Part shown: positions 25,332-55,826 of the stretch, in pieces
Numbering within the stretch: the stretch's first letter is position 1
Layout of the letters: the number at the start of each line of letters is the position of its first letter
Origin: an uncultured Ruminococcus sp.
GTDB taxonomy: Bacteria; Bacillota; Clostridia; Oscillospirales; CAG-272
Reading direction: 5' to 3'
NCBI GenBank assembly: GCA_964621755.1
Contig: CAZUPI010000004.1
Span: forward strand, 10,821-74,820
DNA length: 64,000 bases
The notes under the pieces: generated by a model
The model's input: the letters and a program-made list of their open reading frames with translations, nothing else
Told to the model about the DNA's origin: nothing
Database searches by the model: none
Program-made: the position numbers and the translations under genes

Positions 25332-26840
25332 ATGAAATTCAAGCATATTCCGCCGTTTGCCGCGCTCGTTTTTGCGACGATACTTACGTTTCAGGCGACA
25401 TCGTGCGGTTTTATTATAGTCAATGACATGGCAGCACAGAGTGCCAGTGAGACCGACGCCGCTTCCGAAACCGAGGGAGACGCTGCCGAACCGTTCACCG
25501 GGACGGCATACACGAAGTACGCGGGGGAAGATATGTATACGCAGTCGCGCCGATACTTGGCGGAGCTGCCGGAGCGTGACTATGATGGGGCGGTATTTTT
25601 CATTACCACCCCATCGAAGGACTATATTTCCCCCGACAACACGGATACGACGGTGAATAAACTTGTGGTCGAACGGAACGCCGATGTAGAGGAGCAGTTT
25701 GACGTGACCATTATCACCTCTGTTGTGGAGGCGTCGACTATGCTGTCCGAGCTGACGCAGTGCATCGCGGCGGGCTCGTACTACAGCGATCTTTTGATGA
25801 TACCGGTGTACATGGTTGGGCAGTTCCGCAGCGCCGAGACCCTGATCAACATGCGCACTCTGCCGTTTTTCGATATCGAGCAGCCGTATTTCAATGCTGA
25901 ATCGTCCGACATGACCTCGGGCGGCTACTCGACGTATGGTGTGGCAGGGGACGCGTCGATTGCGCCGTCGTCGTTTTCCGCGGTGTTCATGAACAAGACG
26001 ATACTGGAAGAAGCCGGTGTGGACACGCCGACGATTTATAAGTCGGTGATAGAGGGAACGTGGACATGGGACGACCTACTCGGCTGCGCGGAGGCGGTCA
26101 AGACGATAAACGGCAGCCGTGGGGCAGCGGGGCTGAACGAATACTACACCATCACCGCGCAGAACACGGCTGACAGGCTGCCGGACCTTGTATTCAAATC
26201 GGGCGGCAACAACTACATCCTGGCGGGAAAGCGCACCGTCCCGGCTATCGGGTACTCGGTGAAGTCGTCGCAGGCGACGATGAACGTCCTTGCCTCGATT
26301 TACAACGACAGTCACGCCATAACGGACTCGTCAGCGGGCGCGATAAACTGCTTCTCGGCAGGAGAGTCCGCATTCTTGGTGGATTACCTGTACGTTATGT
26401 CGTGGATGATCAACGCGTCAGCGGACTGGGGCGTTCTTCCGCTGCCGAAGGGTGACGAAAACGACGAGTATCGCACGTTGATATCAAACACAGAGCTGAT
26501 TTTTGCGGTGCCGAAAAATCATACGAACGGTGAGTTCCCGGCAATTATCCTATCTGCGCTGAACGCAGCGTCATACGGCTACATCTATGATGAATACGTC
26601 GACTACCACATGATTCACGTACTTCGCGACAACGATTCCGTCAACATGCTGGACTTGATTCTCGATACAGCATCGTTCGACTTCGCCCTCGCCTTTGGAA
26701 ATGCGTACCCAACCATAGCCGCAGCTACCTACCGCCTCATCCGCGACTGCGCCGCTACAAATAACCTCGCTGATTATTTCACCGACCGGAAGACAACGGC
26801 AACTGAGACGCTGAAAGAATATTTCCCGCTGAAGCCTTAA
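25332..26840 (+). CDS. extracellular solute-binding-protein-like lipoprotein (about 500 aa), orphan
   Basis: Lipobox LTFQATSCG. Overall architecture and blocks (DYDG.., ..ERN..V...F.V.I) are shared with the 35011..36483 paralogue. No permease or ATPase gene is adjacent. Confidence 0.65.
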   Translation: MKFKHIPPFAALVFATILTFQATSCGFIIVNDMAAQSASETDAASETEGDAAEPFTGTAYTKYAGEDMYTQSRRYLAELPERDYDGAVFFITTPSKDYISPDNTDTTVNKLVVERNADVEEQFDVTIITSVVEASTMLSELTQCIAAGSYYSDLLMIPVYMVGQFRSAETLINMRTLPFFDIEQPYFNAESSDMTSGGYSTYGVAGDASIAPSSFSAVFMNKTILEEAGVDTPTIYKSVIEGTWTWDDLLGCAEAVKTINGSRGAAGLNEYYTITAQNTADRLPDLVFKSGGNNYILAGKRTVPAIGYSVKSSQATMNVLASIYNDSHAITDSSAGAINCFSAGESAFLVDYLYVMSWMINASADWGVLPLPKGDENDEYRTLISNTELIFAVPKNHTNGEFPAIILSALNAASYGYIYDEYVDYHMIHVLRDNDSVNMLDLILDTASFDFALAFGNAYPTIAAATYRLIRDCAATNNLADYFTDRKTTATETLKEYFPLKP

Positions 26841-26850
26841 AGAAAAGGAA

Positions 26851-26892
26851 GGCGTTAGGGGAACACTTTTTCAAAAGTGTCCCCCTAACGCC
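26851..26892. repeat. palindromic hairpin (family member R4)
   Basis: GGCGTTAGGGGAACACTTTT-TC-AAAAGTGTCCCCCTAACGCC, a 20-bp stem with one mismatch, 11 nt after the stop at 26840. Confidence 0.8.
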
Positions 26893-26915
26893 TCCACATT
26901 TCGCAGAAAAACATC

Positions 26916-26944
26916 TTGTTAAATCTATTGTTTCGTGATATAAT
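26916..26944 (+). promoter_or_regulatory. sigma-A type promoter for the cytochrome-c cluster (TTGTTA-17-TGA-TATAAT)
   Basis: TTGTTA at 26916-26921, a 17-nt spacer ending in TGA (extended -10), and TATAAT at 26939-26944. It lies about 58 nt upstream of ATG 27002. Confidence 0.55.
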
Positions 26945-27001: not shown

Positions 27002-27691
27002 ATGAAAAAACGAAAAATTCAGCTCTATGATGCGGTGTGCGCGGCTCTTCTTCTGATAACGTTGTTTTTCCTTGTACTCACCGTGAAGTTTTCCACAGGA
27101 AGTTCGGTCAACTTTAACGGTGCGGTCACGACGGCTGTGCTGGCATTTGGCGGCGTTCTCGCGTTCGGTTCGCTGTTTGCGCGGCGGCTGTCCGGCGGTG
27201 CGGTGAAGAAGACCGGATTTTATCTTGCTCATGCGGGGGTTGTTTTGATTCTTGTGGGATTTGCACTGTTCCAGCTATTCGGAGATACAGTGACTGCGGC
27301 AGTTCCGGTGGGCGGCGACACTTTTTATTCGCAAATCCAGCGGGAATCGGGGGAGATGTGCGACCTTGGCTTCAACTTCCGTGTGGACGATTTTGAAATC
27401 GAGACTTATGAGGATGGTTCGGACAAGCAGTATTATGCGGGTCTGGCCTTTGCGGATGAAGTTACGCTGCGGGTAGACACGTCTGAGTTGTCGGTGAATC
27501 ACACGGTACGCCGCGGCGGGTGGAAAATCTACCTTATGAATTATAGCAGCGGGTACGTAAGTCTGATGTTCCGCCGCGACCCGGGCGAGTATGTTGTGAA
27601 GGCGGGGATTGCAGCGCTGATTGCGGGATGCGTTCTCTCCCTCATCGCCGGAAACGGGGTGCGCAAGAAGGAGGAGAACGCCGATGCGTGA
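27002..27691 (+). CDS. miniature ResB/CcsB-like cytochrome c biogenesis protein
   Basis: 229 aa. TM helices flank a short extracytoplasmic loop. Blocks resembling the ResB family: GFYLAHAGVVLILVGFAL (conserved His in a TM), FNFRVDDFEIETYEDGSDKQYYAGLAF, LSVNHTVRRGGWKIYLMNYS and MFRRDPGEYVVKAGIAALIAG. The stop overlaps the next start (ATGCGTGA). Confidence 0.65.
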   Translation: MKKRKIQLYDAVCAALLLITLFFLVLTVKFSTGSSVNFNGAVTTAVLAFGGVLAFGSLFARRLSGGAVKKTGFYLAHAGVVLILVGFALFQLFGDTVTAAVPVGGDTFYSQIQRESGEMCDLGFNFRVDDFEIETYEDGSDKQYYAGLAFADEVTLRVDTSELSVNHTVRRGGWKIYLMNYSSGYVSLMFRRDPGEYVVKAGIAALIAGCVLSLIAGNGVRKKEENADA

Positions 27692-28457
27692 CGTTATTTT
27701 GCGCGGAATTATTCTTTTGGCCACTCTTTTGTACGGCGGGGCGCTTGTGCTGTATCTGCGGCGGAAGGCCAAAGTCGGCGGTATCGTCTGGATTTTGGCG
27801 GAGGCTTTGTCGGTCGTCCTTGTGGTGAACAATTTTGTGGTCAACGGATACGTGCCGTTTGTGAGCATGTATCAGCTTTTGACCTTTGCGGCGGCGCTTT
27901 TTGGTGTGGTGTATTGTTATATTGCGCGTCTGCGGAATGGAAAATGGGCGGCGCCCTACTTTATCGGGTGTTCGCTCGTGGCGTCGCTTGGGCTGTGCTT
28001 TATGGACATTCACGCGGTATGGCATTTTCCGCCGGCGCTTCGGTCGGTATGGTTCGTTCCCCACATTCTGGCGTACGTGATATCTTACATCATGGCGGCA
28101 GCGGCGTTTGCCATGACGGTCACGAAATTTTTCGCAAAAGGCGAACGAAGAAAACAGCTCGACGGCGGAATTTACGACTGCGTATGCGTACTGTTCCCGT
28201 TCATGTCGATGGGGATGCTGTTCGGCGCGGTATGGGCGAACGAGGTCTGGGGTGCATTCTGGAGCTGGGACATCAAGGAATGCTGGTCCCTTGTGACATG
28301 GCTGACCTTTATGACATGGCTCCACGTCCGCCGCAGTCCCAGATTCTCGAGATTCAAGGACGTCCTCCTCGTCGCCGGATTTGCATTCGTGATTGTGACA
28401 TTCTTTTTTGTGAATCTCATGAATGCGGCGGGGGGATCTATGCATGCGTATAACTGA
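27684..28457 (+). CDS. ccsA: CcsA/ResC-like cytochrome c assembly (haem-handling) protein
   Basis: AGGAGGAG RBS lies 8 nt before ATG 27684. It is polytopic. The WWD haem-handling motif reads WGAFWSWDIKECWSLVTWL, with flanking conserved His in VPHILAYV and WLHVRR. Confidence 0.8.
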   Translation: MRDVILRGIILLATLLYGGALVLYLRRKAKVGGIVWILAEALSVVLVVNNFVVNGYVPFVSMYQLLTFAAALFGVVYCYIARLRNGKWAAPYFIGCSLVASLGLCFMDIHAVWHFPPALRSVWFVPHILAYVISYIMAAAAFAMTVTKFFAKGERRKQLDGGIYDCVCVLFPFMSMGMLFGAVWANEVWGAFWSWDIKECWSLVTWLTFMTWLHVRRSPRFSRFKDVLLVAGFAFVIVTFFFVNLMNAAGGSMHAYN

Positions 28458-28597: not shown

Positions 28598-30733
28598 ATG
28601 AAATCAAAATGGAAGTTGTTGTTGGCGGCTTTGCTGTTGCCTGTGCTTGCGGCATGCGGCACAGTTGAGCGGTCGGACAACGTTGCGCCTACGCTGGAGG
28701 AGCGGATTGATGCGGAAGAATATATTTCGCCATCGTCCGTTTTTGTGGCGGAGGACGGATTTATTTATGCTGCGGATGAGACTGGCGGGCGGGTATTGAA
28801 GCTGAATCCGGACGGCAGTATTGCGGCGCAGGCTGTGCTTGAAGGCGGCGCGCACTGTATCAGGGTATACGGTGATTCGGTTTACGTCGCGCGGGGAGAG
28901 CTTGACGGGACGTTGGCGGTACTCGATGAAGATTTGCGGTTAACCGGAGAATACATAGTTGGACACACGCCGACGGATATCGAGTTTTCGGAAAGCAGAA
29001 TTTATGTTACGAACCGGTTTTCGAATACGGTTTCGGTAATTGATACGGAGTCGGGAGACATTAGAGAAATCCCTGTTGGGCGGGAGCCCATGGCGGCGGC
29101 GATTGCGAACAACAAGCTGTATGTTGCGTGCCATCTGCCCGATGATGCTGCAAACGCGGATGTTGTCAGTGCGTCGGTTTATGTTATCGATATGGCGACG
29201 GAGGCGGTGCGCACGATTGAGCTTGTCAACGGGACGGGCGGCGTGAAGGATATCGAGGCTGCGCCTGACGGAACAAGACTCTTTGTGTCCGCCGTGATTG
29301 CGCGGTATCAATATCCTACGACCCAGCTTGACGGTGCGTGGATCAACTCGAACGGATTTGCCATCATTGATGCGGAGACTGACGAGTATGTGAACACGAT
29401 TCTTCTCGATGATGTGACGCTCGGGGCGGCGTCCCCGTGGGGCATTGCTTTCGGAGGGGGAAATGTGTACTTTGCGGCGTCGGGGACAAGTGAAATCATC
29501 AGCTTTCCGCTCGACCGGCTGGATTCGCTGCTTGGCTCTGCGGCCTACCGCGGACGGGAGCTTGCGGACGAAATCGGCATTTTGAACAGCATCCGCACCC
29601 GGACCGAGATGCCGGGCGAGGGGGTACGGGATATCATGTATGCGGAGGGCAAGCTCTACTGCACGGAGTACTTCACCGGTGACCTTGCGGTGCTTGATAC
29701 TTCCGATATGACCATTGCCACCTTATCCCTTGGAGAGCAGCCGGAAGCAGATATTGTGCGCCTTGGTGAGACGTTGTGGTATGACGCGACGAAATGCTAT
29801 CAGCAATGGGAGGCTTGTGCGTCCTGCCATCCCGACGGACGTGTGGACGGCTTCAACTGGGACAACCTGAACGATGGCCTCGGTAATCCGAAATCTGCGA
29901 CCTCCATGATGTATACGCACCGCTGTCCGCCGGTTATGACGACGGGCATTCGCGCCAACGCGGAAACTGCGGTCCGTGCCGGCATGAAGTATATTCAGTT
30001 CAACACCATTGACGAGGAGTCCAACTGTGCGATTGATGAATATTTGAAATCCCTTCTTCCGGTCGACTCACCAGCGCTGAACCTCGATGGGACCCTCAGC
30101 GAGGCGGCAGCGGAAGGAAAACTGCTGTTCACGGAATATGGCTGTGTGACTTGTCATCCCGCACCCTTGTACACGGACCTTGAGTATCACACCTCTCCGA
30201 TTCTGGGGGAGGATGGCGGATGGGAAAACCGCGATTTTGTAACGCCGACCCTCGTCGAAGTTTGGAGAAGCGCGCCGTACATGTACAACGGCTCGGCTCT
30301 TACTCTTGAGGATGCGGTGAGACATTTTGTCCCCGAAGGAACTTCGGAGGAGAAGATTGAGAAGCTGGCCGAGTTCGTCCGTTCTATCGGCAGTTCCGGT
30401 GAGATTTACGGGGTCGAGCAGCTTTATTCCGTAGGCGCGGACGGAGGCGAAGTGCAGGGAAGACCTGTGGAATATACGCGTATCAGCGGATTTACCGTTC
30501 GCTGTCAGAGTGAGGATGCGCCCGCGTGCAAAGCAATTCTGACGCTGACGGGAGATGACGGGCAAGTTTCCTATGAGACCAATATCGGAACTGTGCCGTA
30601 CAATACGGCGGTGCGTGTGACCGTTGACGTGGACTTGTATGCACAGCCTGGCGGCGAGGTCCGCCTTGCGCTGGTCGACAAAAAGGGCAATCCGCTGGCG
30701 TCCGAGTACGTTCTGACAGTCAAGGAAAGCTGA
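28598..30733 (+). CDS. lipoprotein: YVTN-type beta-propeller fused to di-haem cytochrome c peroxidase (CCP/MauG)-like domain
   Basis: AGGAGA RBS. Lipobox LLPVLAACG. Propeller repeats include IYVTNRFSNTVSVIDTESG, KLYVACH and RLFVSAV. Two haem-c motifs are present, CASCH and CVTCH. The CCP-like block reads FVTPTLVEVWRSAPYMYNGSALTLEDAVRHF. Confidence 0.75.
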   Translation: MKSKWKLLLAALLLPVLAACGTVERSDNVAPTLEERIDAEEYISPSSVFVAEDGFIYAADETGGRVLKLNPDGSIAAQAVLEGGAHCIRVYGDSVYVARGELDGTLAVLDEDLRLTGEYIVGHTPTDIEFSESRIYVTNRFSNTVSVIDTESGDIREIPVGREPMAAAIANNKLYVACHLPDDAANADVVSASVYVIDMATEAVRTIELVNGTGGVKDIEAAPDGTRLFVSAVIARYQYPTTQLDGAWINSNGFAIIDAETDEYVNTILLDDVTLGAASPWGIAFGGGNVYFAASGTSEIISFPLDRLDSLLGSAAYRGRELADEIGILNSIRTRTEMPGEGVRDIMYAEGKLYCTEYFTGDLAVLDTSDMTIATLSLGEQPEADIVRLGETLWYDATKCYQQWEACASCHPDGRVDGFNWDNLNDGLGNPKSATSMMYTHRCPPVMTTGIRANAETAVRAGMKYIQFNTIDEESNCAIDEYLKSLLPVDSPALNLDGTLSEAAAEGKLLFTEYGCVTCHPAPLYTDLEYHTSPILGEDGGWENRDFVTPTLVEVWRSAPYMYNGSALTLEDAVRHFVPEGTSEEKIEKLAEFVRSIGSSGEIYGVEQLYSVGADGGEVQGRPVEYTRISGFTVRCQSEDAPACKAILTLTGDDGQVSYETNIGTVPYNTAVRVTVDVDLYAQPGGEVRLALVDKKGNPLASEYVLTVKES

Positions 30734-30749
30734 GGAGGGATTCTATATT

Positions 30750-33700
30750 ATGAAGAAAACGATTCAAATTCTGTCCCTTATCCTAACGCTTGCGATGCTC
30801 TGCAGCGCGGTGGTGATTTTTGCGGCAGGTGACAAGCTGTCCTTCTCTTTGTCGAGCGAAGCGGTGCTGGTGAACACCTATGAAGCCGGCGAGAATGCCG
30901 ATGTGATTGGCAGGCTGTATGAGGAAACGCCGTATTATATTGTGGTTCGGCACCGGCAGCTCGGCGCGTCGCATTACGCTTATACAGAAGCGCTCGCGGA
31001 AGACCTCGGTCAGGACAACGCGGACCCGGAGGGCGGGGAAGCGGTCTTCAATCCCGGATCGGAGCTTGTGCTTGTGACAATTGTGAAGGACGGCGACACG
31101 TACTCCACTTATGAAGACGTGCTTCTGTCCTCGAAAAAAGGCGTCATCCGCGACCCGGATGTGTCTGCGGACGGGACCAAAGTCCTGTTTTCGTGGAAGC
31201 AGCAGAGCACGGACGACTATCATCTCTACGAAATGACCCTTCAGAACCGGGAAATCAGGCAGCTCACTTTCGGCTCCGGCGTCGCCGATACCGAAGGAAA
31301 ATACCTGTCGGACGGCTCGATTATTTTCAGCTCCTCAAGGGATATCCAGACTGTGGACTGCTGGATAACTCCCGTATCGAACCTATATAAGTGCAGTGCA
31401 GACGGAACGGATATCATCCGGCTCGGCTACGACCAGGTCCACACCTCTTACCCGACCGTGACCTCGGACGGGCGAATCATCTACACCAGATGGGACTACA
31501 ACGACCGCACGCAGATGTGGATTCAGTCGGTATTCCAGATGTTCGAGGACGGCACCAACCAGACCGAGCTGTATGGCAACAATTCGGATTTCCCGACGTC
31601 TCTTCTGCACACGCGCGAGGTGCCGGGGCATCCGGGACTGTATCTTTCTATCGCCTCCGGACATCACGTTTATCAACACGGCAAACTGGTGCTGATAGAC
31701 ACGTCGGTCGACAGAAACAGCAGCGACGCGGTGGAATTTGTTTTCAGCGACGGCACCCGGAAGGAAAATAGCGTCGACACCTTCGGGCAGTCCGGCAGGC
31801 AGTACAAATACCCTTACGCGTTTTCGGACGACTTGTTCCTCTACTCGGCAGTGGACAATTACACCGGTGTGAGTGCGGAATTTTCCATTTATGCTTATGA
31901 CAGAACGACTGATACGGAGGTTGAGCTGGTGACGGGCACAAAGGGAATCGGCGCATCGCAGATTGTTCCGGTCTACACCCGCGACCTGTTCACCCGCCCC
32001 AGCATGGTCAACTATGCTTCGGAAACCGGAACGTTCTACGTATCAAACGTGTATGAAGGGGAGGCAATGGAGGGCGTTGAAGTCGGCTCCGTGCAGTATT
32101 TGCGGGTTGTTGAGCTGGAATTCCGCTCCTCCGCAATAGGGGCTACGGTCGCAGTTGGCTCGGGCTCCGCTGACCCGTTTTCCCCTATTGCAACGGGAAA
32201 TGGCTCGTGGGACGTCAAAACCGTGCTTGGCGTGGCGCCGGTTGAGGAAGACGGGAGCGCGCTGTTCAAAGCGCCCGCGAATACGCCGCTGTTCTTCCAG
32301 CTGCTCGACGAAAACGGATGCGTCGTTCAAACCATGCGTTCTTGGACGACTCTCATGCCAAACGAGACCTTCTCCTGTGTGGGCTGCCATGAGGATAAAA
32401 ACATCGCTCCCACGGTCAGCGGGACGGTCACCATGGCTATGAAAAAGGGTGTGGTTGAAATCGAACCGGACCTGTGGATGACCGACGAAACGTATGACCC
32501 GTATACGGACGCGGTGGGCTTCTCGTTCCTTGAGGAAGTGCAGCCGATACTGGATAAGAACTGCATCGTCTGCCACTCCGACACCGACGAAGCCTACTCC
32601 CTGATAAGCGCACGCGCGGCAGCAGGATACGACACCACCCCCGCGGACGTTATTCTGGCCGAGGATGCAGTATGGCACTACACGACCACAGCACCAGCCG
32701 CCGACTGGCTGACCGACTTTACACCGGACTCTGCCTCACACGCGCCCTTTGCCGACGGCGAGACCGAGCCATACGAACACAATACCGTGTGGACCTCCGG
32801 GGAGCTTTGGGCGCGGACGACCTTCACCGGTACTGTTTACGACCTCAACAACTCCTCTCTGGCGTTCACGGGACAGCTTTGCGGCAAGGCGGAAATCTAC
32901 CTCAACGGCGCCCTTGTGGCGGAGGTTGAAAACAAGACGTCCGACGTCGTGAGTATTCCGGTGACTGGAGACATGCGAGAGGCATTCCTGTTTGGGGAAA
33001 ATACACTTGCGGTACACGTGACCGACGGCAAGTATTTTACCCTAGGTCTGACCTCTTTGGCGAGTGCAACAGGAGATCAGAAGTACTTTATCAGGCAGTA
33101 CGCATTGTGGGAATATATCAGAGCGAAGGATTTGTCCTATGCTCCCGACGGCTGGATCACGCTTGAAGATGATTCGACCAAATGGCAGACCGGACAGACC
33201 CCGTTCGGAGACCGCACCATTGACGGTATCGGCTATAAAACCGCATGGTCAGGGGCTGCCAACGCAATTTTCATCAGGCGCACGTTTACGGTAGACGATA
33301 TTGAAAAGTTCAAAAACTCGTCTCTTTGGACCAAAATCACGTATGACGACGGCATCAAGCTCTACATCAACGGCAAGCTGCTGTACGAAGACACGGGCTG
33401 GGTCGACAATTACGTCGAGATTGAGCTGTGTAAGGATGCGGCGGAATACCTCGTCGAGGGAGAGAACATCATTGCGATATCCCTCTGCAATACGGCGGGC
33501 GGACGACAGATAGACCTGTCCCTGTACGCATACGAAAGGGAACCGAATCAGGAGGAGGTCGAACCCCTTGACTCGTCCCGCGAATCGGCATTCTCGCTGG
33601 AAAACATCAACGTGGTCGGCTCGCGGCAGAAGAAATACTGGCCCCTGTCCTATCTTGTTCTCACCGGCTCTTATCCCAGCAGTACAAACTGGCTTGCGTC

Positions 33701-34826
33701 ACCGAACGGAGATTATGTGAATTTCCTGTCGTCGATGAGCGGCGCGGAAATCGTCGAGCCGTACTCCTTCGGTTCGTCAAAGAGCAGACTGATTGAGCTT
33801 TTGCGCAGCGGTCACGGAGACCTCACCGAAGAGGAAATCCGCACCATCGCATGTTGGATCGACCTTGTTGTCCCGGCGTACGGCGCATACGACGAGAACG
33901 TGACGTGGAGCGCCAACGACCAGCGCGAATTCGATGAAAAATCGAACAAGCGCGAATATTACGATAACCTGAATAAAGCGGTTATAGACGAAAAAGCAGG
34001 CGTGTATAACAGCGTCGGCGATGTGACGATTGAATTTTTGCGGACAAACGGTACTGTGGCGGCGACGGCGTCCGGTCAGGGCTTTGCGATACTGAACATC
34101 GACGGCACATACGTAGCAAAGGAGAGTGTGAGAATCACGCTTCCGGAGGGTGAAAAATACGTCGCGGTATGCTTGTCGTCCAAGCTGGGCGAGAGCATTG
34201 TATACTGTCCGGATGGGGTATTTGAATACAAATTCCCCACGCAGATGGGAAATATTTATCCGACCGCGCTGGATGATTCGAAGGATACCGTCTACATTGC
34301 CAACGTGATAAGCGCACGGATTCCGACGAAAGACGAGCTGACAGCGTCCCGCAACCTGGCAGAGAACGTGTACGACCTGAAGGATAACGCATCATCTTAT
34401 CCTCACGCGTCGACAAACAGCGTAGCAGACAGCGGCGCGGCGTACTACGAGGCGAGATGCGCCATCGACAGCTTCACAGCGAATACCGGGCATGGCACAT
34501 ATCCCGTTCAGTCATGGGGACCGGAAAAGGACACAATGGCAGACAACTGCCTTACCGTTGACTTTGGCCGGACGGTCAAGCTGGATGCGCTCGAAATCAT
34601 CATTCGCTGCGACTTCCCGCATGACACATGGTTCACTGGCGCCGACGTCACCTTCTCGGACGGGACAACGGAGCACATTGATCTATACAAAACGGAGTCC
34701 GCAATGGTCTTTAACCTGGGCGGCCGCGAAACCACGTCCATCAGGCTCTCCGGCTTCACCACCGCCGGTGATGCTTGGGCGGCAATCACCGAAATCCGTG
34801 CGATTGGGTCTGATATTGTAGAATAA
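30750..34826 (+). CDS. giant secreted multidomain protein: TolB/PD40-like propeller + di-haem (2x CxxCH) hydrazine-synthase-alpha-like region + tandem jelly-roll modules + discoidin (F5/8 type C)-like C-terminus
   Basis: 1358 aa with signal peptide MKKTIQILSLILTLAMLCSAVVIFAAG. PD40-like blocks: DPDVSADGTKVLFSW, YLSDGSIIFSSSR and TSDGRIIYTRWDYNDR. Haem motifs: MRSWTTLMPNETFSCVGCHEDKN and LDKNCIVCHSD. Two similar modules start at WHYTTTAP.. and WEYIRAKD... The C-terminal block reads NCLTVDFGRTVKLDALEIIIRCDF..ITEIRAIG. Confidence 0.7.
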   Translation: MKKTIQILSLILTLAMLCSAVVIFAAGDKLSFSLSSEAVLVNTYEAGENADVIGRLYEETPYYIVVRHRQLGASHYAYTEALAEDLGQDNADPEGGEAVFNPGSELVLVTIVKDGDTYSTYEDVLLSSKKGVIRDPDVSADGTKVLFSWKQQSTDDYHLYEMTLQNREIRQLTFGSGVADTEGKYLSDGSIIFSSSRDIQTVDCWITPVSNLYKCSADGTDIIRLGYDQVHTSYPTVTSDGRIIYTRWDYNDRTQMWIQSVFQMFEDGTNQTELYGNNSDFPTSLLHTREVPGHPGLYLSIASGHHVYQHGKLVLIDTSVDRNSSDAVEFVFSDGTRKENSVDTFGQSGRQYKYPYAFSDDLFLYSAVDNYTGVSAEFSIYAYDRTTDTEVELVTGTKGIGASQIVPVYTRDLFTRPSMVNYASETGTFYVSNVYEGEAMEGVEVGSVQYLRVVELEFRSSAIGATVAVGSGSADPFSPIATGNGSWDVKTVLGVAPVEEDGSALFKAPANTPLFFQLLDENGCVVQTMRSWTTLMPNETFSCVGCHEDKNIAPTVSGTVTMAMKKGVVEIEPDLWMTDETYDPYTDAVGFSFLEEVQPILDKNCIVCHSDTDEAYSLISARAAAGYDTTPADVILAEDAVWHYTTTAPAADWLTDFTPDSASHAPFADGETEPYEHNTVWTSGELWARTTFTGTVYDLNNSSLAFTGQLCGKAEIYLNGALVAEVENKTSDVVSIPVTGDMREAFLFGENTLAVHVTDGKYFTLGLTSLASATGDQKYFIRQYALWEYIRAKDLSYAPDGWITLEDDSTKWQTGQTPFGDRTIDGIGYKTAWSGAANAIFIRRTFTVDDIEKFKNSSLWTKITYDDGIKLYINGKLLYEDTGWVDNYVEIELCKDAAEYLVEGENIIAISLCNTAGGRQIDLSLYAYEREPNQEEVEPLDSSRESAFSLENINVVGSRQKKYWPLSYLVLTGSYPSSTNWLASPNGDYVNFLSSMSGAEIVEPYSFGSSKSRLIELLRSGHGDLTEEEIRTIACWIDLVVPAYGAYDENVTWSANDQREFDEKSNKREYYDNLNKAVIDEKAGVYNSVGDVTIEFLRTNGTVAATASGQGFAILNIDGTYVAKESVRITLPEGEKYVAVCLSSKLGESIVYCPDGVFEYKFPTQMGNIYPTALDDSKDTVYIANVISARIPTKDELTASRNLAENVYDLKDNASSYPHASTNSVADSGAAYYEARCAIDSFTANTGHGTYPVQSWGPEKDTMADNCLTVDFGRTVKLDALEIIIRCDFPHDTWFTGADVTFSDGTTEHIDLYKTESAMVFNLGGRETTSIRLSGFTTAGDAWAAITEIRAIGSDIVE

Positions 34827-34830
34827 TAAT

Positions 34831-34864
34831 ATAGGGGGAAACTTTTCGGAAAGTTTCCCCCTAT
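34831..34864. repeat. palindromic hairpin (family member R5)
   Basis: ATAGGGGGAAACTTT-TCGG-AAAGTTTCCCCCTAT, a perfect 15-bp stem, 5 nt after the stop at 34826. Confidence 0.8.
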
Positions 34865-34891
34865 ATTTTATTTTATTCATGTGAGTTGGCC

Positions 34892-52308: not shown

Positions 52309-52407
52309 GAGACACAAGAAACCGCAGATTCTGCGGAAATTGCAAGTTCTGAATTCAAAGTAAGGAGGGTATCTGTTCTGAAAACTTCTGATAAAAAGGG
52401 GACGTTT

Positions 52408-53946
52408 TTGCAGGGAGCGTTCATCCTCACGATTTCTACCGCGTTCGTGAAGCTGGCCGGACTCCTGTTCACCATCCCGATTGCCAATATGCTGCACGGC
52501 GACGGTATGGGTTATTTTTATGCCGCGTACGATATTTATAATATGCTTGCCGTCCTCGCCTCCGCCGGACTTCCGGTGGCCGTGTCGAGAATGGTCAGTG
52601 AAACACTCGTCTCCGGCAATACCGCCGAAGCGGACCGCATCTATAAAGTCTCCGTCCGGATTTTCACCATCATTGGCGCAGTCATCGCCGCCGTCATGTT
52701 CTTCGGCGCGGACCTCCTCGCCGCACTTATCAAAAATCCGAACGCCGGTATGTCCATCCGCGCTCTGTCCGTCACCGCGTTCTGCGCATTCGTGATGTCC
52801 GCCCTCCGCGGCTACTTCCAGGGACATTCCATTATGAAGTATACCGCCGTGTCGCAGGTCATCGAGGCGTTTGCCAAGCTCGTCCTCGGCTGCCTGCTCG
52901 CTTATGTGCTTCTTAAAACCGAATATGAATATATAGGCGGCTCTGCAGGCGCGATTCTCGGCGTGTCCATCGGCGCAGCGCTGGCGGTCTTATACCTGCT
53001 GTTCAATAAGAAACGTATGGACAAGGCCCAAACTCTCTGCGATATGCCCGTGCGTGCCGATAAGGTCATTATCAAGGAACTGTTCAAAATCGCGATTCCC
53101 GTATCCCTCGGCGCATCGGTCATGAGCCTTGTTAACCTCATCGATACGACCGTCATCATGCGCATTCTGCAGGACGGGCTCGGCTATTCTTACGAGCGCG
53201 CAAACTGGCTGTACGGCGTCTTCGGCAACGCAAAAAAGATATTCAATTTTCCCTCTGCGTTTATTGTGCCGTTTTCCGTGAGCATTCTCCCCGTTCTGAC
53301 CGCCGCGTATACCGTGCGCGATAAAGAAGGTGTGCGCAGCAATATGGTGACCTGCTTCAAATACGCCCTCCTGCTCGCTCTTCCGGCAGGGATTGGCATC
53401 TCAGTTCTCTCCGCGCCGATTATGCACATCATCTACTTCAATACGCCCGAGGAGGCGACCGCCGGAACCCCCCTTCTCGCGGTCTACGGTATCGCAGTCA
53501 TCCTGTACGCAGTCGTATCCATCAGCGGCGCTATTCTGCAAGCCTTTGGACACGTGAATCTGCCGCTTATCAGCCTCACAGTCGGCGGGGTCGTAAAATG
53601 TGTGCTCAACGCGGTACTCGTCGGCTTTGCATCTATTAATATCATGGGTGCACCGATTGCAACCTGCGTTTGTTACGTCGTCATGATTGTCATGAACCTC
53701 GTCTTCCTGCGCCCGTACCTGACAGGCTGCACTGCAATTATCGGCAACACGCTGAAAACAGCGGCTGCTTCCCTCATTATGGGCGCCTTTGCTTATTTTG
53801 CATATTCTATCCTTTCCAACCTTCTCGGCATCCGAATCGGCGGCCTTATCGCCATCTGCTGCTCCGTCTTTGTCTACGCCGCCATGATTCTCGTCTTCCG
53901 CGTCGTCACTTTCCGCGAATTGAAATCCATGCTTTCCCGAGGTTGA
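52408..53946 (+). CDS. MOP-superfamily flippase (SpoVB/MurJ-like polysaccharide biosynthesis protein)
   Basis: Polytopic protein of 512 aa or more. The N-terminus (LQGAFILTISTAFVKLAGLLFTIPIANML) is typical of SpoVB-type proteins. The TTG 52408 start has no RBS. An in-frame CTG at 52378 sits 8 nt after AAGGAGGG, so the true start may be 52378. Confidence 0.75.
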   Translation: MQGAFILTISTAFVKLAGLLFTIPIANMLHGDGMGYFYAAYDIYNMLAVLASAGLPVAVSRMVSETLVSGNTAEADRIYKVSVRIFTIIGAVIAAVMFFGADLLAALIKNPNAGMSIRALSVTAFCAFVMSALRGYFQGHSIMKYTAVSQVIEAFAKLVLGCLLAYVLLKTEYEYIGGSAGAILGVSIGAALAVLYLLFNKKRMDKAQTLCDMPVRADKVIIKELFKIAIPVSLGASVMSLVNLIDTTVIMRILQDGLGYSYERANWLYGVFGNAKKIFNFPSAFIVPFSVSILPVLTAAYTVRDKEGVRSNMVTCFKYALLLALPAGIGISVLSAPIMHIIYFNTPEEATAGTPLLAVYGIAVILYAVVSISGAILQAFGHVNLPLISLTVGGVVKCVLNAVLVGFASINIMGAPIATCVCYVVMIVMNLVFLRPYLTGCTAIIGNTLKTAAASLIMGAFAYFAYSILSNLLGIRIGGLIAICCSVFVYAAMILVFRVVTFRELKSMLSRG

Positions 53947-53955
53947 AAAGCCCCC

Positions 53956-54014
53956 TGCCCAAAAGTTTTTGAGGTGGGATTGGAGGGGAACTTTTTGAAG
54001 AAAAGTTCCTTCCC
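53956..54014. repeat. repeat block: 23-nt arm TGCCCAAAAGTTTTTGAGGTGGG plus imperfect family hairpin R13
   Basis: The arm at 53956-53978 recurs inverted at 55844-55867. Hairpin GGAGGGGAACTTTTTGAAGAAAAGTTCCTTCCC lies at 53982-54014. Confidence 0.7.
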
Positions 54015-54050
54015 AACTATCTTGACTTGATAAAATATTGGAGGTAATAT

Positions 54051-55826
54051 ATGAAAACACGTAATGAAATTCCCGCCGAGCTTAAGTGGGATTTTTCGCA
54101 TATCTATAGAACGGCCGAGGACTGGGAGAAAGCCTATGCGGCGTGCGAGGAGATGATTCCGGATGTGGCGTCCGTAAAAGGAACTCTCGCAAAATCAGCG
54201 GAGACGCTGTTTGATGCCTATGAAAAGCTGTATGCGTTCTCGGAAAAATTTGAGCATGTCGCTTGCTACGCGTTTCTCGCAAAATCCGCTGACGGCTCGG
54301 ATACCGACGCGCAGGTCATGACCGACCGCGTGCAGATGCTGGGTGTGAAGTTCAGCGCGGCTGTGGCGTTCTTCGAGCCGGAGCTGATGGACATTCCCGA
54401 GGAGACGCTCACGGAATATTTGCAGTATGAGCCCCTCAAAAAGTATGCGCATATTATCGAGGACGCGACCCGTCTGCGCAGCCATACGCTCGACGAAAAG
54501 AGCGAGGAGCTCCTCGCCAAAGTATCGAAAATCACCGGAATCCCGAGTGACACTTATGATATGTTCACCAATGTGGAAATGGAGCTTCCAAGCATCACCG
54601 ACGAAAACGGAGAGGAAGCGCCGCTGACCTCCGGTACCTTCGGCATGTTCCGCGAATCAAAGGACAGACGGGTCCGCGAAGCTGCGTTTGAGGGCATGTT
54701 CGGCACGTATGGGAAGTATATCAACACATTCGCATGCCTCTACGGCGGAAGCGTGAAGAAGGACAACATGGCCGCCGATATCCGCGGGTATTCGTCCGCT
54801 CGCGCTGCCTCTCTCGCCGGGAGCAATGTGCCCGAGAAGGTTTACGACTCCCTCGTGGAAGCTGTGCACGACGCCATTCCGTCCATGAGCAAGTATCTGA
54901 ACCTGCGTAAGAAGGCGCTCGGACTCGAAACGCTCGATGTGTTTGACCTGTATACCCCCATGGTCGCGGATGTCGACTATCCGATGCCTTATGAAAACGC
55001 CTGCGAACTCGTGAAAAAGGCAGTCGCACCGCTGGGCGAAAAGTACGTGGAGGTGATTGACCGCGCGTACCGCGAAAACTGGATTGACGTTTATGAGACG
55101 CCCGGTAAGGATTCCGGCGCGTTCTCAATGGGCGTGTACGGCGTTCACCCGTATGTCATGCTCAACTATACCGATACGCTCGACGACGCGTTTACGCTTG
55201 CCCATGAGCTGGGACATGCCATGCACTCGTATCTCTCCTCCGGCGCGCGCGACTACGCCAACCATGATTACCACCTCGTCGTAGCTGAGGTCGCCTCAAC
55301 CTGCAATGAGGTCCTGCTGACAAAGTATCTCCTGTCCACCGAGACAGACCCCCGCCGCCGCGCTTATATTCTCAATCACTTCCTGGAGGGATTCCGCACC
55401 ACAGTCTTCCGCCAGACGCTGTTTGCCGAGTTCGAACAGCGCACCCATGAGCTGGAGGCCTCCGGTACCCCGCTTACGTCAAGCTGCCTGTCCGAGCTGT
55501 ACGGCGGTCTTGTAAAGCAGTACTATCCCGACGCAGAGTTCCGTGATGTAGTAAAATATGAGTGGGCCTATATCCCGCATTTCTACCGCGCATTCTATGT
55601 ATACCAGTATGCAACCGGATTCTCAGCCGCTGTGGCCATCGCGTCGAATATCCTTGAAACGGGCGACCCGTCAAGATATCTTGAATTTCTCTCGACCGGC
55701 GGCTCCGATTACCCAATCAACGAGCTGAAAATCGCGGGCGTCGACCTTACGTCCCCTGAGGTTGTCAAAAATGCCATGAAAGTCTTCGAGGAAACCATCG
55801 ATGAACTGGCGGAAATATTAAAATAA
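54051..55826 (+). CDS. pepF: oligoendopeptidase F (M3B)
   Basis: GGAGG RBS. 591 aa. Zinc motif HELGHAMH, and the N-terminal LKWDFSHIY is typical of PepF. Confidence 0.9.
   Translation: MKTRNEIPAELKWDFSHIYRTAEDWEKAYAACEEMIPDVASVKGTLAKSAETLFDAYEKLYAFSEKFEHVACYAFLAKSADGSDTDAQVMTDRVQMLGVKFSAAVAFFEPELMDIPEETLTEYLQYEPLKKYAHIIEDATRLRSHTLDEKSEELLAKVSKITGIPSDTYDMFTNVEMELPSITDENGEEAPLTSGTFGMFRESKDRRVREAAFEGMFGTYGKYINTFACLYGGSVKKDNMAADIRGYSSARAASLAGSNVPEKVYDSLVEAVHDAIPSMSKYLNLRKKALGLETLDVFDLYTPMVADVDYPMPYENACELVKKAVAPLGEKYVEVIDRAYRENWIDVYETPGKDSGAFSMGVYGVHPYVMLNYTDTLDDAFTLAHELGHAMHSYLSSGARDYANHDYHLVVAEVASTCNEVLLTKYLLSTETDPRRRAYILNHFLEGFRTTVFRQTLFAEFEQRTHELEASGTPLTSSCLSELYGGLVKQYYPDAEFRDVVKYEWAYIPHFYRAFYVYQYATGFSAAVAIASNILETGDPSRYLEFLSTGGSDYPINELKIAGVDLTSPEVVKNAMKVFEETIDELAEILK

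What the first reader, a model, noticed from the sequence alone, without database searches (positions are those of the whole stretch)
27002..28457. Miniaturised ResB-like partner translationally coupled to CcsA; no thiol-reduction gene in the cluster
The ResB-like ORF is only 229 aa. It retains a TM-embedded His (FYLAHAGVVLILVG), a short soluble loop, and the C-terminal VNH...G.KIY / DPG...V..G...L..G blocks. Canonical ResB/CcsB proteins have a much longer extracytoplasmic domain, from my general knowledge of the family. Its stop and the ccsA start share the sequence ATGCGTGA, with an AGGAGGAG RBS inside the ResB-like coding region. That arrangement implies coupled 1:1 expression. System II normally also needs CcdA/ResA-type reductants, and none is encoded here. 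A stripped-down CcsB could mark a distinct, minimal System II variant.
Basis: partly seen in the sequence, partly recalled or inferred. Interest (0 to 1): 0.6.

Follow-up and report, generated by a model that had tools for sequence, protein, structure and literature searches.

The report
Minimal haem-attachment pair, gut Clostridia
Two small overlapping membrane-protein genes encode a stripped-down but intact haem-attachment enzyme (System II, ResB/CcsB plus CcsA) that serves the two hydrazine-synthase-like cytochromes next to it, in a gut bacterium that apparently cannot make its own haem; the short ResB form is real, but a similarly short form is already known from Bacteroides.

Summary
27002-27691 encodes a 229-aa ResB/CcsB (Pfam ResB, 84 bits). 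Its stop overlaps the ATG of a 257-aa CcsA by 8 nt, with a Shine-Dalgarno site inside resB.

- All four haem-ligand histidines and the WWD motif are invariant in relatives.
- AlphaFold models give 4 TM helices plus a ~100-residue beta cap (ResB) and 8 TM helices (CcsA). Both find H. hepaticus CcsBA as best PDB match.
- The assembly (95.6% complete) has no second ResB or CcsA. It has no CcdA, DsbA/BdbD, DsbB or VKOR, and no ALAD or ferrochelatase.
- The pair serves the two downstream hydrazine-synthase-like dihaem proteins, the only credible c-type cytochromes in the genome. In 151 genomes of the same family, 13 had both ResB and HZS_alpha, 3 had one and 135 had neither.
- 0 of 32 other ResB-CcsA genomes have ALAD; 26 of 32 lack CcdA.

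The claim of a distinct minimal variant is only partly supported:
- The B. thetaiotaomicron CcsBA structure (2026) already has a 27-kDa CcsB without the inserted domain.
- Anammox bacteria have a 257/322-aa pair.
- Within this clade, ResB ranges from 227 to 562 aa with the same CcsA.

The scan noted the same mini pair in another genome (e1-5008508). The four-gene cassette has its own follow-up (e1-3620552).

The parts
26916..26944 (+). Promoter-like site (TTGTTA-17-TATAAT with TG) in front of the four-gene operon. It follows the terminator hairpin 26848-26895 of the upstream gene.
   Evidence: 10 of 12 matches; consensus scan only.
27002..27691 (+). resB/ccsB, 229 aa. Four TM helices (2-31, 41-60, 67-93, 196-219) and an all-beta extracytoplasmic cap (95-192). 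TM-His1 is H77.
   Evidence: Pfam ResB at 84 bits. AF2 pLDDT 84.6. Foldseek 7s9y/7s9z TMq 0.65/0.62. H77 invariant in 22 sequences.
27669..27676 (+). Shine-Dalgarno AGGAGGAG for ccsA, inside the resB coding region, 7 nt before the ATG.
   Evidence: Sequence.
27684..27691 (+). ATGCGTGA: the ccsA start and the resB stop overlap by 8 nt (translational coupling).
   Evidence: A stop/start overlap (mostly 4 nt, some 8) is found in nearly all 35 related loci.
27684..28457 (+). ccsA, 257 aa, eight TM helices and no soluble domain. P-His1 is H127, the WWD motif is W184-D196 (WANEVWGAFWSWD), TM-His2 is H214 and P-His2 is H254.
   Evidence: PF01578 at E 2.3e-25. Aligns to HhCcsBA 686-892 at E 5e-14. Invariant residues in 23 sequences. 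AF2 pLDDT 88.4. Foldseek 7s9z, then CcmF.
28598..30733 (+). Substrate 1: a 711-aa lipoprotein with a beta-propeller and a CCP/MauG-like dihaem domain (CASCH at 407, CVTCH at 516). It resembles the hydrazine-synthase beta-gamma fusion.
30750..34826 (+). Substrate 2: a 1358-aa secreted protein with a TolB-type propeller, an HZS_alpha middle domain, two CXXCH sites (543, 605) and jelly-roll/discoidin-like modules.
   Evidence: PF18582 at E 2.5e-32. CXXCH positions.
34828..34867 (+). Terminator-like hairpin (18 pairs plus a T tract) that ends the operon.

Best explanation
The two genes encode a complete, minimal two-subunit System II holocytochrome c synthase (CcsB/ResB plus CcsA; 229 + 257 = 486 residues, 12 TM helices and one ~100-residue beta cap).

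They are the first two genes of a four-gene operon and are made in coupled fashion.

Their job is to take haem through the membrane and attach it covalently to the four CXXCH sites of the two hydrazine-synthase-like proteins encoded directly downstream. Haem would pass from the TM site (ResB H77 and CcsA H214) to the outer WWD site (CcsA H127 and H254). The two substrates are Sec-exported to the outer face of the membrane: one is a lipoprotein, the other has a signal peptide.

The short ResB is the insertion-free core of the family. The large domain of canonical ResB proteins is an insertion into one of two loops of the beta cap, and it is dispensable for this task.

No CcdA/ResA arm is needed. 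The cell has no extracytoplasmic disulfide-forming machinery and lives in a reducing gut habitat.

The host lacks ALAD and ferrochelatase, so the haem must be scavenged and imported first.

Shown here: sequence, family and fold membership, ligand conservation, coupling, genomic linkage and co-occurrence, and the absences.

Inferred: catalytic activity, the haem route, 1:1 stoichiometry, and the haem source.
For: Family and fold:
- Pfam ResB at 84 bits and Cytochrom_C_asm at 90 bits.
- Profile hit to BtCcsBA 25vk residues 11-227 (E 1.2e-7) and to HhCcsBA.
- CcsA aligns to HhCcsBA 686-892.
- AF2 models with pLDDT 84.6 and 88.4 find 7s9y/7s9z and CcmF by Foldseek.

Ligands:
- ResB H77 is invariant.
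- CcsA H127, the WWD Trp/Asp residues, H214 and H254 are invariant.

Coupling:
- The 8-nt overlap and the SD site.
- The overlap is conserved in related loci.

Dedicated role:
- The assembly has one ResB and one CcsA.
- The only exported proteins with cytochrome-type CXXCH sites are the two downstream genes.
- CcsA is adjacent in all 37 genome loci. The HZS-like pair follows in most loci that extend far enough, and also in two more distant loci.
- All 5 tested genomes with an unlinked ResB-CcsA (5 of the 7 such loci) have an HZS_alpha protein elsewhere.
- In 151 genomes of the same family: ResB in 15, HZS_alpha in 14, both in 13. The 2 ResB-only cases sit at contig ends.

Insertion-free core:
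- Long relatives differ by a 250-330-aa insert after KIYLMxY.
- Others carry a ~70-aa insert at residues 135/136.

No redox arm:
- No DsbD_TM, DsbB, VKOR, Thioredoxin_4 or DSBA in the assembly.
- 26 of 32 related ResB-CcsA genomes lack CcdA.
- B. subtilis CcdA/ResA are dispensable without BdbCD (PMC3884852).

Haem auxotrophy:
- No ALAD and no ferrochelatase in the own genome.
- ALAD is found in 0 of 32 related ResB-CcsA genomes.
Against:
- Only monomers could be modelled, so the ResB-CcsA interface and haem sites are not tested.
- CcsA scores 127.8 bits against the NCBIfam equivalog TIGR03144, below its 187.6 cut-off, so it is a divergent member.
- The genome is a 132-contig assembly, 95.6% complete. 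Absences of CcdA, Dsb and hem genes are therefore not proof.
- Four of the closest relatives do carry a CcdA plus a membrane CGPC-thioredoxin pair elsewhere.
- Co-occurrence counts come from related genomes and are not independent.
- A haem importer was not identified.
Confidence: 0.8

Rival explanations
1. The synthase is loaded with scavenged haem from the outside face, directly at the WWD/P-His site. The miniaturised pair would then no longer act as a transmembrane haem channel. This would be an adaptation to haem auxotrophy in a cell without an outer membrane.
For: All 33 ResB-CcsA genomes examined lack ALAD, and the own genome also lacks ferrochelatase. The cell is monoderm, so external haem reaches the outer face of the membrane directly. 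Both subunits have lost every accessory domain.
Against: The two membrane-embedded histidines that form the TM haem site in HhCcsBA (His77/His858, PMC3884852) are invariant here: ResB H77 and CcsA H214. That argues the channel is retained. B. thetaiotaomicron lacks an ALAD hit in the control panel, yet it uses a normal CcsBA (PMC13645880).
Confidence: 0.07
2. The pair is a haem exporter or haem-handling device with no synthase role, for example haem detoxification. The neighbouring cytochromes would be matured otherwise or not at all.
For: It is still debated whether System II itself moves haem (PMC3884852). Some loci have ResB-CcsA without an adjacent CXXCH protein (L017, L020, L023, L026, L027, L033, L040).
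Against: The genome has no other cytochrome c maturation system: one PF01578 hit, which would also detect CcmC/CcmF. The WWD motif and both P-His residues are invariant. All 5 tested genomes with unlinked pairs still have an HZS_alpha protein. Co-occurrence is near-perfect in 151 genomes.
Confidence: 0.05
3. The 229-aa ORF is a decayed remnant of a canonical ResB (a deletion derivative on its way to loss), and the cassette is no longer functional in this genome.
For: It is less than half the length of the Pfam ResB model (486 positions), and only positions 147-266 give the best-scoring match. The two congeneric genomes lack the cassette altogether.
Against: More than 100 clusters (at 90% identity) of 200-300 aa share the same architecture, with 22 invariant columns at 30-65% identity. 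All four genes have intact frames. The fold is confidently predicted. The same size is seen in the functional BtCcsB fragment.
Confidence: 0.03

Closest known systems
CcsBA of Bacteroides thetaiotaomicron (cryo-EM of W703C, PDB 25vk; Seifermann et al. 2026, PMC13645880)
   Same: Its CcsB part is the same size and layout. The mini-ResB profile positions 8-223 align to chain residues 11-227 (E 1.2e-7). The released CcsB fragment is 27 kDa and lacks the beta-barrel insertion of H. hepaticus. The host is a gut anaerobe with no ALAD hit in the control panel, and it also has an HZS_alpha-domain protein.
   Different: There the two halves are one gene, cleaved after translation. The CcsA fragment is 50 kDa with a large periplasmic domain, and the whole has 13 TM helices. 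CcdA is present (control). The host is diderm and has six cytochromes c. Here there are two overlapping genes, CcsA is 257 aa with no soluble domain, and there are 12 TM helices in all.
CcsBA of Helicobacter hepaticus (PDB 7S9Y/7S9Z)
   Same: It is the best structural match of both models. It has the same four histidines (His77, His761, His858, His897) and the same WWD motif.
   Different: It is fused and about 940 residues long. It has an extra beta-barrel inserted in the CcsB cap, seen as about 100 extra alignment columns.
ResB-ResC of Bacillus subtilis with CcdA and ResA (canonical Gram-positive System II)
   Same: Two separate subunits in a monoderm, belonging to the same Pfam families.
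   Different: Review tables describe ResB with 'one large periplasmic domain'. From my own knowledge, B. subtilis ResB is 542 aa and ResC 391 aa. It needs CcdA/ResA because BdbCD oxidise the apocytochrome. Here neither the oxidants nor the reductants were found.
Second CcsA-CcsB pair of anammox bacteria (kuste3100, 257 aa, and kuste3101, 322 aa; Ferousi et al. 2013, PMC4222556)
   Same: A short CcsB with 4 TM helices and only the truncated 'VN' motif, next to a 257-aa, 8-TM CcsA. It occurs in the organisms that make true hydrazine synthase.
   Different: The anammox CcsA has a modified WWD motif (WGxxAWGxYFLWDAK). The window's CcsA keeps the near-canonical WANEVWGAFWSWDIKE. A direct relationship was not tested, because the sequences could not be fetched.
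Cluster-dedicated System II synthases (Wolinella NrfI/CcsA1, from my own knowledge; the ccsAB module of the Tenderiales uet cluster, named in scan notes)
   Same: A private ResB/CcsA copy encoded with the cytochromes it serves.
   Different: Those are extra copies beside a housekeeping system, and some serve non-standard haem motifs. Here the pair is the only maturation system in the genome, and the sites are standard CXXCH.

Membership tests
ResB/CcsB (Pfam PF05140), System II | Significant profile match above the curated cut-off | tested here: met
   84 bits against a cut-off of 24.6, E 1.3e-23. Residues 66-182 match profile positions 147-266, plus a second stretch. The same result came from the whole-genome search.
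ResB/CcsB (Pfam PF05140), System II | Four TM helices with an extracytoplasmic domain between TM3 and TM4, N and C termini inside | tested here: met
   AF2 gives helices 2-31, 41-60, 67-93 and 196-219, with a beta domain at 95-192. Basic residues lie at both ends (sequence).
ResB/CcsB (Pfam PF05140), System II | Conserved histidine in the TM helix before the soluble domain (TM-His1) | tested here: met
   H77 is invariant in 22 and 11 sequences. It aligns with the His of BtCcsBA and HhCcsBA.
ResB/CcsB (Pfam PF05140), System II | Fold of the CcsB half of a solved CcsBA | tested here: met
   Foldseek 7s9y at E 4e-9, TMq 0.65; 7s9z at TMq 0.62; then CcmF.
ResB/CcsB (Pfam PF05140), System II | Large (about 250-300 aa) extracytoplasmic domain, as in B. 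subtilis ResB and plastid Ccs1 | tested here: not met
   The cap is about 100 residues. This is not a family-defining trait: BtCcsB lacks the extra domain, and relatives differ only by loop insertions.
ResB/CcsB (Pfam PF05140), System II | CcsB motif VNx(1-4)P, used by Ferousi et al. | tested here: inconclusive
   The window has VNHTV (no Pro). Many orthologues have VNHPV. V165 and N166 are invariant.
CcsA/ResC (Pfam PF01578; NCBIfam TIGR03144) | WWD motif flanked by two external His, plus one TM His | tested here: met
   WANEVWGAFWSWD (184-196), H127, H214 and H254 are all invariant in 23 sequences and align to HhCcsBA.
CcsA/ResC (Pfam PF01578; NCBIfam TIGR03144) | Score above the NCBIfam equivalog cut-off | tested here: not met
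   127.8 bits against 187.6. The Pfam cut-off is met (89.9 against 29.9). This is a divergent subfamily of 248-274 aa with at least 719 clusters.
Complete System II pathway (CcsB, CcsA, CcdA, ResA/CcsX) | CcdA/DsbD-type membrane reductant and an extracytoplasmic thioredoxin | tested here: not met
   No DsbD_TM in the assembly. tblastn with the CcdA and CGPC-thioredoxin of close relatives found no CcdA; the only hit was the cytoplasmic thioredoxin. 26 of 32 related genomes lack CcdA. The assembly is 95.6% complete.
Complete System II pathway (CcsB, CcsA, CcdA, ResA/CcsX) | Covalent haem attachment to CXXCH apocytochromes | not testable with these tools
   This needs expression and haem staining or mass spectrometry.

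The most novel reading that the evidence does not exclude
This clade may be the smallest natural holocytochrome c synthase: two subunits, 486 residues, and in most hosts no thiol-redox helper. It appears to have spread as a self-sufficient 'cytochrome kit' among gut Clostridia that cannot make tetrapyrroles (ALAD not found in any of the 33 genomes examined). If so, c-type cytochrome assembly in a monoderm runs entirely on scavenged haem. The short form might also be related to the short second CcsBA pair of anammox bacteria, which would link a special synthase lineage to hydrazine-synthase-type haem proteins.
Probability: 0.25. Interest if true: 0.65.

Novelty: new member of a known kind. Interest (0 to 1): 0.42.

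Why it matters
- A 486-residue, two-gene synthase with no accessory domains is a convenient minimal model. It can show which parts of CcsBA are needed for haem transport and attachment.
- The natural series of short and long ResB partners with the same CcsA is a ready-made domain-deletion experiment.
- The pair is the only route by which the enigmatic hydrazine-synthase-like proteins of gut Clostridia can receive haem. It is therefore the handle for expressing those proteins heterologously.
- None of the hosts examined has ALAD. The cassette would thus tie an extracellular haem enzyme to haem scavenging in the herbivore gut.
- The short-ResB observation by itself is not a new kind of system.

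Tried and rejected
1. A longer canonical ResB or a second CcsA elsewhere in the genome: none found.
2. A wrong start, or a longer ORF hidden by a frameshift: the frame is open for only 241 codons, and the upstream DNA holds a terminator and a promoter-like site.
3. P0067 and P0072 (492 and 525 aa) as natural ResB-CcsA fusions that could serve as a complex model: they are long ResBs with an inserted domain, not fusions.
4. A complex prediction: the structure tool folds single chains of window or locus proteins only. I did not hand in an artificial fusion.
5. The flanking SBP-type lipoproteins as haem-delivery partners. One directly follows ccsA in L023, L026 and L033. However, only 8 of 37 loci have one nearby, and the genome holds 20 or more paralogues. 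I treat the adjacency as incidental.
6. Recent transfer judged from base composition: the cassette is 54.7% GC against 51-53% in the flanks, so there is no signal.
7. Other candidate cytochromes: a 134-aa TM protein with a zinc-ribbon tail (C58) and a 484-aa Cys-rich surface protein (C48). Both have zinc-ribbon-like CxxC pairs and are not cytochrome domains.
9. Literature search for a prior description of this Clostridial pair: nothing found in the held library.
10. Direction of change (loss or gain of the insert) and origin of the module: not resolved, because no outgroup sequences could be fetched.
Full report
**What is there.**
The window is C4:10821-74820 of a 2.63-Mb, 132-contig assembly that is 95.6% complete. 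ORF 27002-27691 (+) encodes 229 aa. The frame that follows encodes a CcsA-type protein.

The sequence ATGCGTGA at 27684-27691 holds the ccsA ATG and the resB TGA, an 8-nt overlap. AGGAGGAG lies at 27669-27676, 7 nt before that ATG. The ORF lister begins the ccsA frame at a TTG (27621), but 22 homologues start at the position of the ATG.

A promoter-like site (26916-26944) follows the terminator of the upstream gene. A strong hairpin (34828-34867) follows the fourth gene. The four genes therefore form one operon-like unit.

**Family and fold.**
- The 229-aa protein matches Pfam ResB at 84 bits against a cut-off of 24.6. The 257-aa protein matches Cytochrom_C_asm at 90 bits.
- CcsA scores below the NCBIfam CcsA equivalog cut-off, 127.8 against 187.6 bits.
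- A profile of 22 short ResB proteins finds two solved structures:
  - 25vk, an 828-residue CcsBA: profile 8-223 aligns to chain 11-227, E 1.2e-7.
  - H. hepaticus CcsBA 7s9y: profile 119-222 aligns to chain 229-329.
- CcsA aligns to HhCcsBA 686-892 at E 5e-14.
- The ResB AlphaFold2 model has pLDDT 84.6, four TM helices and an all-beta domain at 95-192.
- The CcsA model has pLDDT 88.4, eight TM helices and no soluble domain.
- Foldseek returns HhCcsBA first for both models, then CcmF.
- The residues that bind haem in HhCcsBA (His77/His858 in the membrane, His761/His897 outside; PMC3884852) correspond to ResB H77 and to CcsA H214, H127 and H254.
- All four histidines, and the WWD tryptophans and aspartate, are invariant across relatives at 30-76% identity.

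**What 'miniaturised' means.**
Aligning the 229-aa protein with longer relatives shows it is the insertion-free core of the family.
- Proteins of 484-562 aa (L023, L026, L033, P0067, P0072) carry 250-330 extra residues between KIYLMxYxxG (residues 175-186) and VxLxF+xDPGE (187-196).
- Others (L042, P0069) carry about 70 residues at positions 135/136.
- The exhaustive profile search agrees. Of its best 150 hits, most are 215-300 aa. Full-length single-stretch matches are about 215-260 aa. Two-stretch matches break near profile positions 137 or 183.

The short form is thus common and diverse in metagenomes, not a one-off. NCBI already names these proteins 'cytochrome c biogenesis protein ResB' and 'CcsA'.

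**Precedent.**
- I take 25vk to be the cryo-EM structure of B. thetaiotaomicron CcsBA (PMC13645880), from the molecule name and chain length. The paper reports a 27-kDa CcsB fragment. [quoted passage not shown]
- Ferousi et al. (PMC4222556) list a second anammox pair: a CcsA of 257 aa with a CcsB of 322 aa, which has 4 TM helices and a truncated VN motif.
- A short CcsB is therefore a known architecture.
- What differs here is that both partners are at their minimum and are separate genes. The total is 486 residues and 12 TM helices, against 828 residues and 13 helices in B. thetaiotaomicron.

**What it serves.**
- The genome has one ResB and one CcsA/CcmC/CcmF-type gene.
- The only proteins with two CXXCH sites and an export signal are the two genes downstream:
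  - a 711-aa lipoprotein (propeller plus CCP/MauG-like dihaem domain);
  - a 1358-aa protein with an HZS_alpha domain.
- In 37 loci from herbivore-gut Clostridia MAGs, ccsA always follows resB. Named taxa include Oscillospiraceae, Acutalibacteraceae and Lachnospiraceae.
- The two HZS-like genes follow in most loci that extend far enough, and in two more distant loci.
- Seven loci lack them. All five of those genomes that I tested have an HZS_alpha protein elsewhere, including one with a 552-aa ResB.
- In a sample of 151 genomes of the window's own family, ResB was found in 15, HZS_alpha in 14 and both in 13. The two ResB-only hits lie at contig ends.
- Both other species of the genus lack the cassette. 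Their synteny with the window stops right after the upstream SBP gene.
- Base composition gives no sign of recent transfer.

**Redox arm.**
- The operon has no thiol-reduction gene.
- The assembly has no DsbD_TM/CcdA. Its only thioredoxin-like hit is a 116-aa cytoplasmic WCGPC protein.
- It also has no DsbB, VKOR, BdbD-type (Thioredoxin_4) or DSBA family member.
- In B. subtilis, ResA and CcdA are not needed when BdbC/BdbD are absent or when a reductant is supplied (PMC3884852). The absence here is therefore expected rather than puzzling.
- It is not universal in the clade. Six of 32 related ResB-CcsA genomes have CcdA, and four of those are the closest relatives.
- In the two relatives I fetched, CcdA sits beside a membrane-anchored CGPC thioredoxin, away from the cassette.

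**Haem supply.**
- The assembly has no ALAD and no ferrochelatase.
- ALAD was found in none of the 32 related ResB-CcsA genomes.
- With the usual caution for MAGs, these hosts cannot make tetrapyrroles and must scavenge haem.
- The invariant TM histidines argue that haem still passes through the synthase from the cytoplasm, so an importer is implied. I did not identify one.

**Verdict.**
This is a real, minimal, coupled CcsB-CcsA synthase, it is the only one in the genome, and it has no reductant arm.
- The shortness of ResB is not a new kind of System II. ResB length varies within the clade without change of partner or substrate.
- I file it as a new member of a known kind. It has two features worth follow-up: it is the private synthase of the HZS-like cassette, and its hosts look like haem auxotrophs.
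- The cassette as a whole was already followed up in this scan (e1-3620552). The same mini pair was noted on another genome (e1-5008508).

**Limits.**
- No complex model.
- MAG-level absences are not proof.
- Genome counts come from related genomes and are not independent.

Noticed in passing
Whole genome G000 and genomes G001-G033 (hosts of loci L008-L044): ALAD (HemB) was found in none of the 33 genomes that carry this ResB-CcsA pair. The own genome also lacks ferrochelatase. The hosts of this c-type cytochrome cassette therefore look like haem auxotrophs.
   Followed up: partly
L045:2016-3360 (-) and L046:265-1617 (+): Close relatives (G009, G006) encode a CcdA (217-221 aa) directly beside a membrane-anchored CGPC thioredoxin (223-229 aa), far from the cassette. 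The own genome has no counterpart. The region next to the conserved MATE gene (C26:31151-32548) holds other genes.
   Followed up: partly
L048:4187-8671: One homologue of the large HZS_alpha-like subunit carries a Dockerin_1 domain and F5/8 type C modules. This hints that the enzyme can be attached to a cellulosome-type scaffold.
   Followed up: no
L017:11627-16192; L027:256-3459; L040:2244-4295: In loci where ResB-CcsA is not followed by the HZS-like pair, large secreted proteins without any CXXCH sit next to it. Two of them share only the C-terminal discoidin-like region of the 1358-aa protein (31-37% identity).
   Followed up: no
window 25332-26840; L023:6287-7600, L026:12251-13543, L033:12309-13601: An SBP_bac_1-type lipoprotein lies just upstream of the cassette here, and directly after ccsA in three loci with long ResB. 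The genome has 20 or more paralogues and only 8 of 37 loci show one nearby, so the adjacency is probably incidental.
   Followed up: yes
window 26847 onward compared with L053 and L054: Synteny with the two congeneric genomes ends exactly after the SBP gene at 26846. In G082 the next conserved block corresponds to window 52363-55820. The cassette therefore lies at the edge of a variable region of about 25 kb.
   Followed up: partly
The genome search control panel: B. thetaiotaomicron is the only one of the 14 control genomes with an HZS_alpha-domain hit. It also has a short-CcsB CcsBA and no ALAD hit. A Bacteroidota link for the cassette is possible but was not tested.
   Followed up: no
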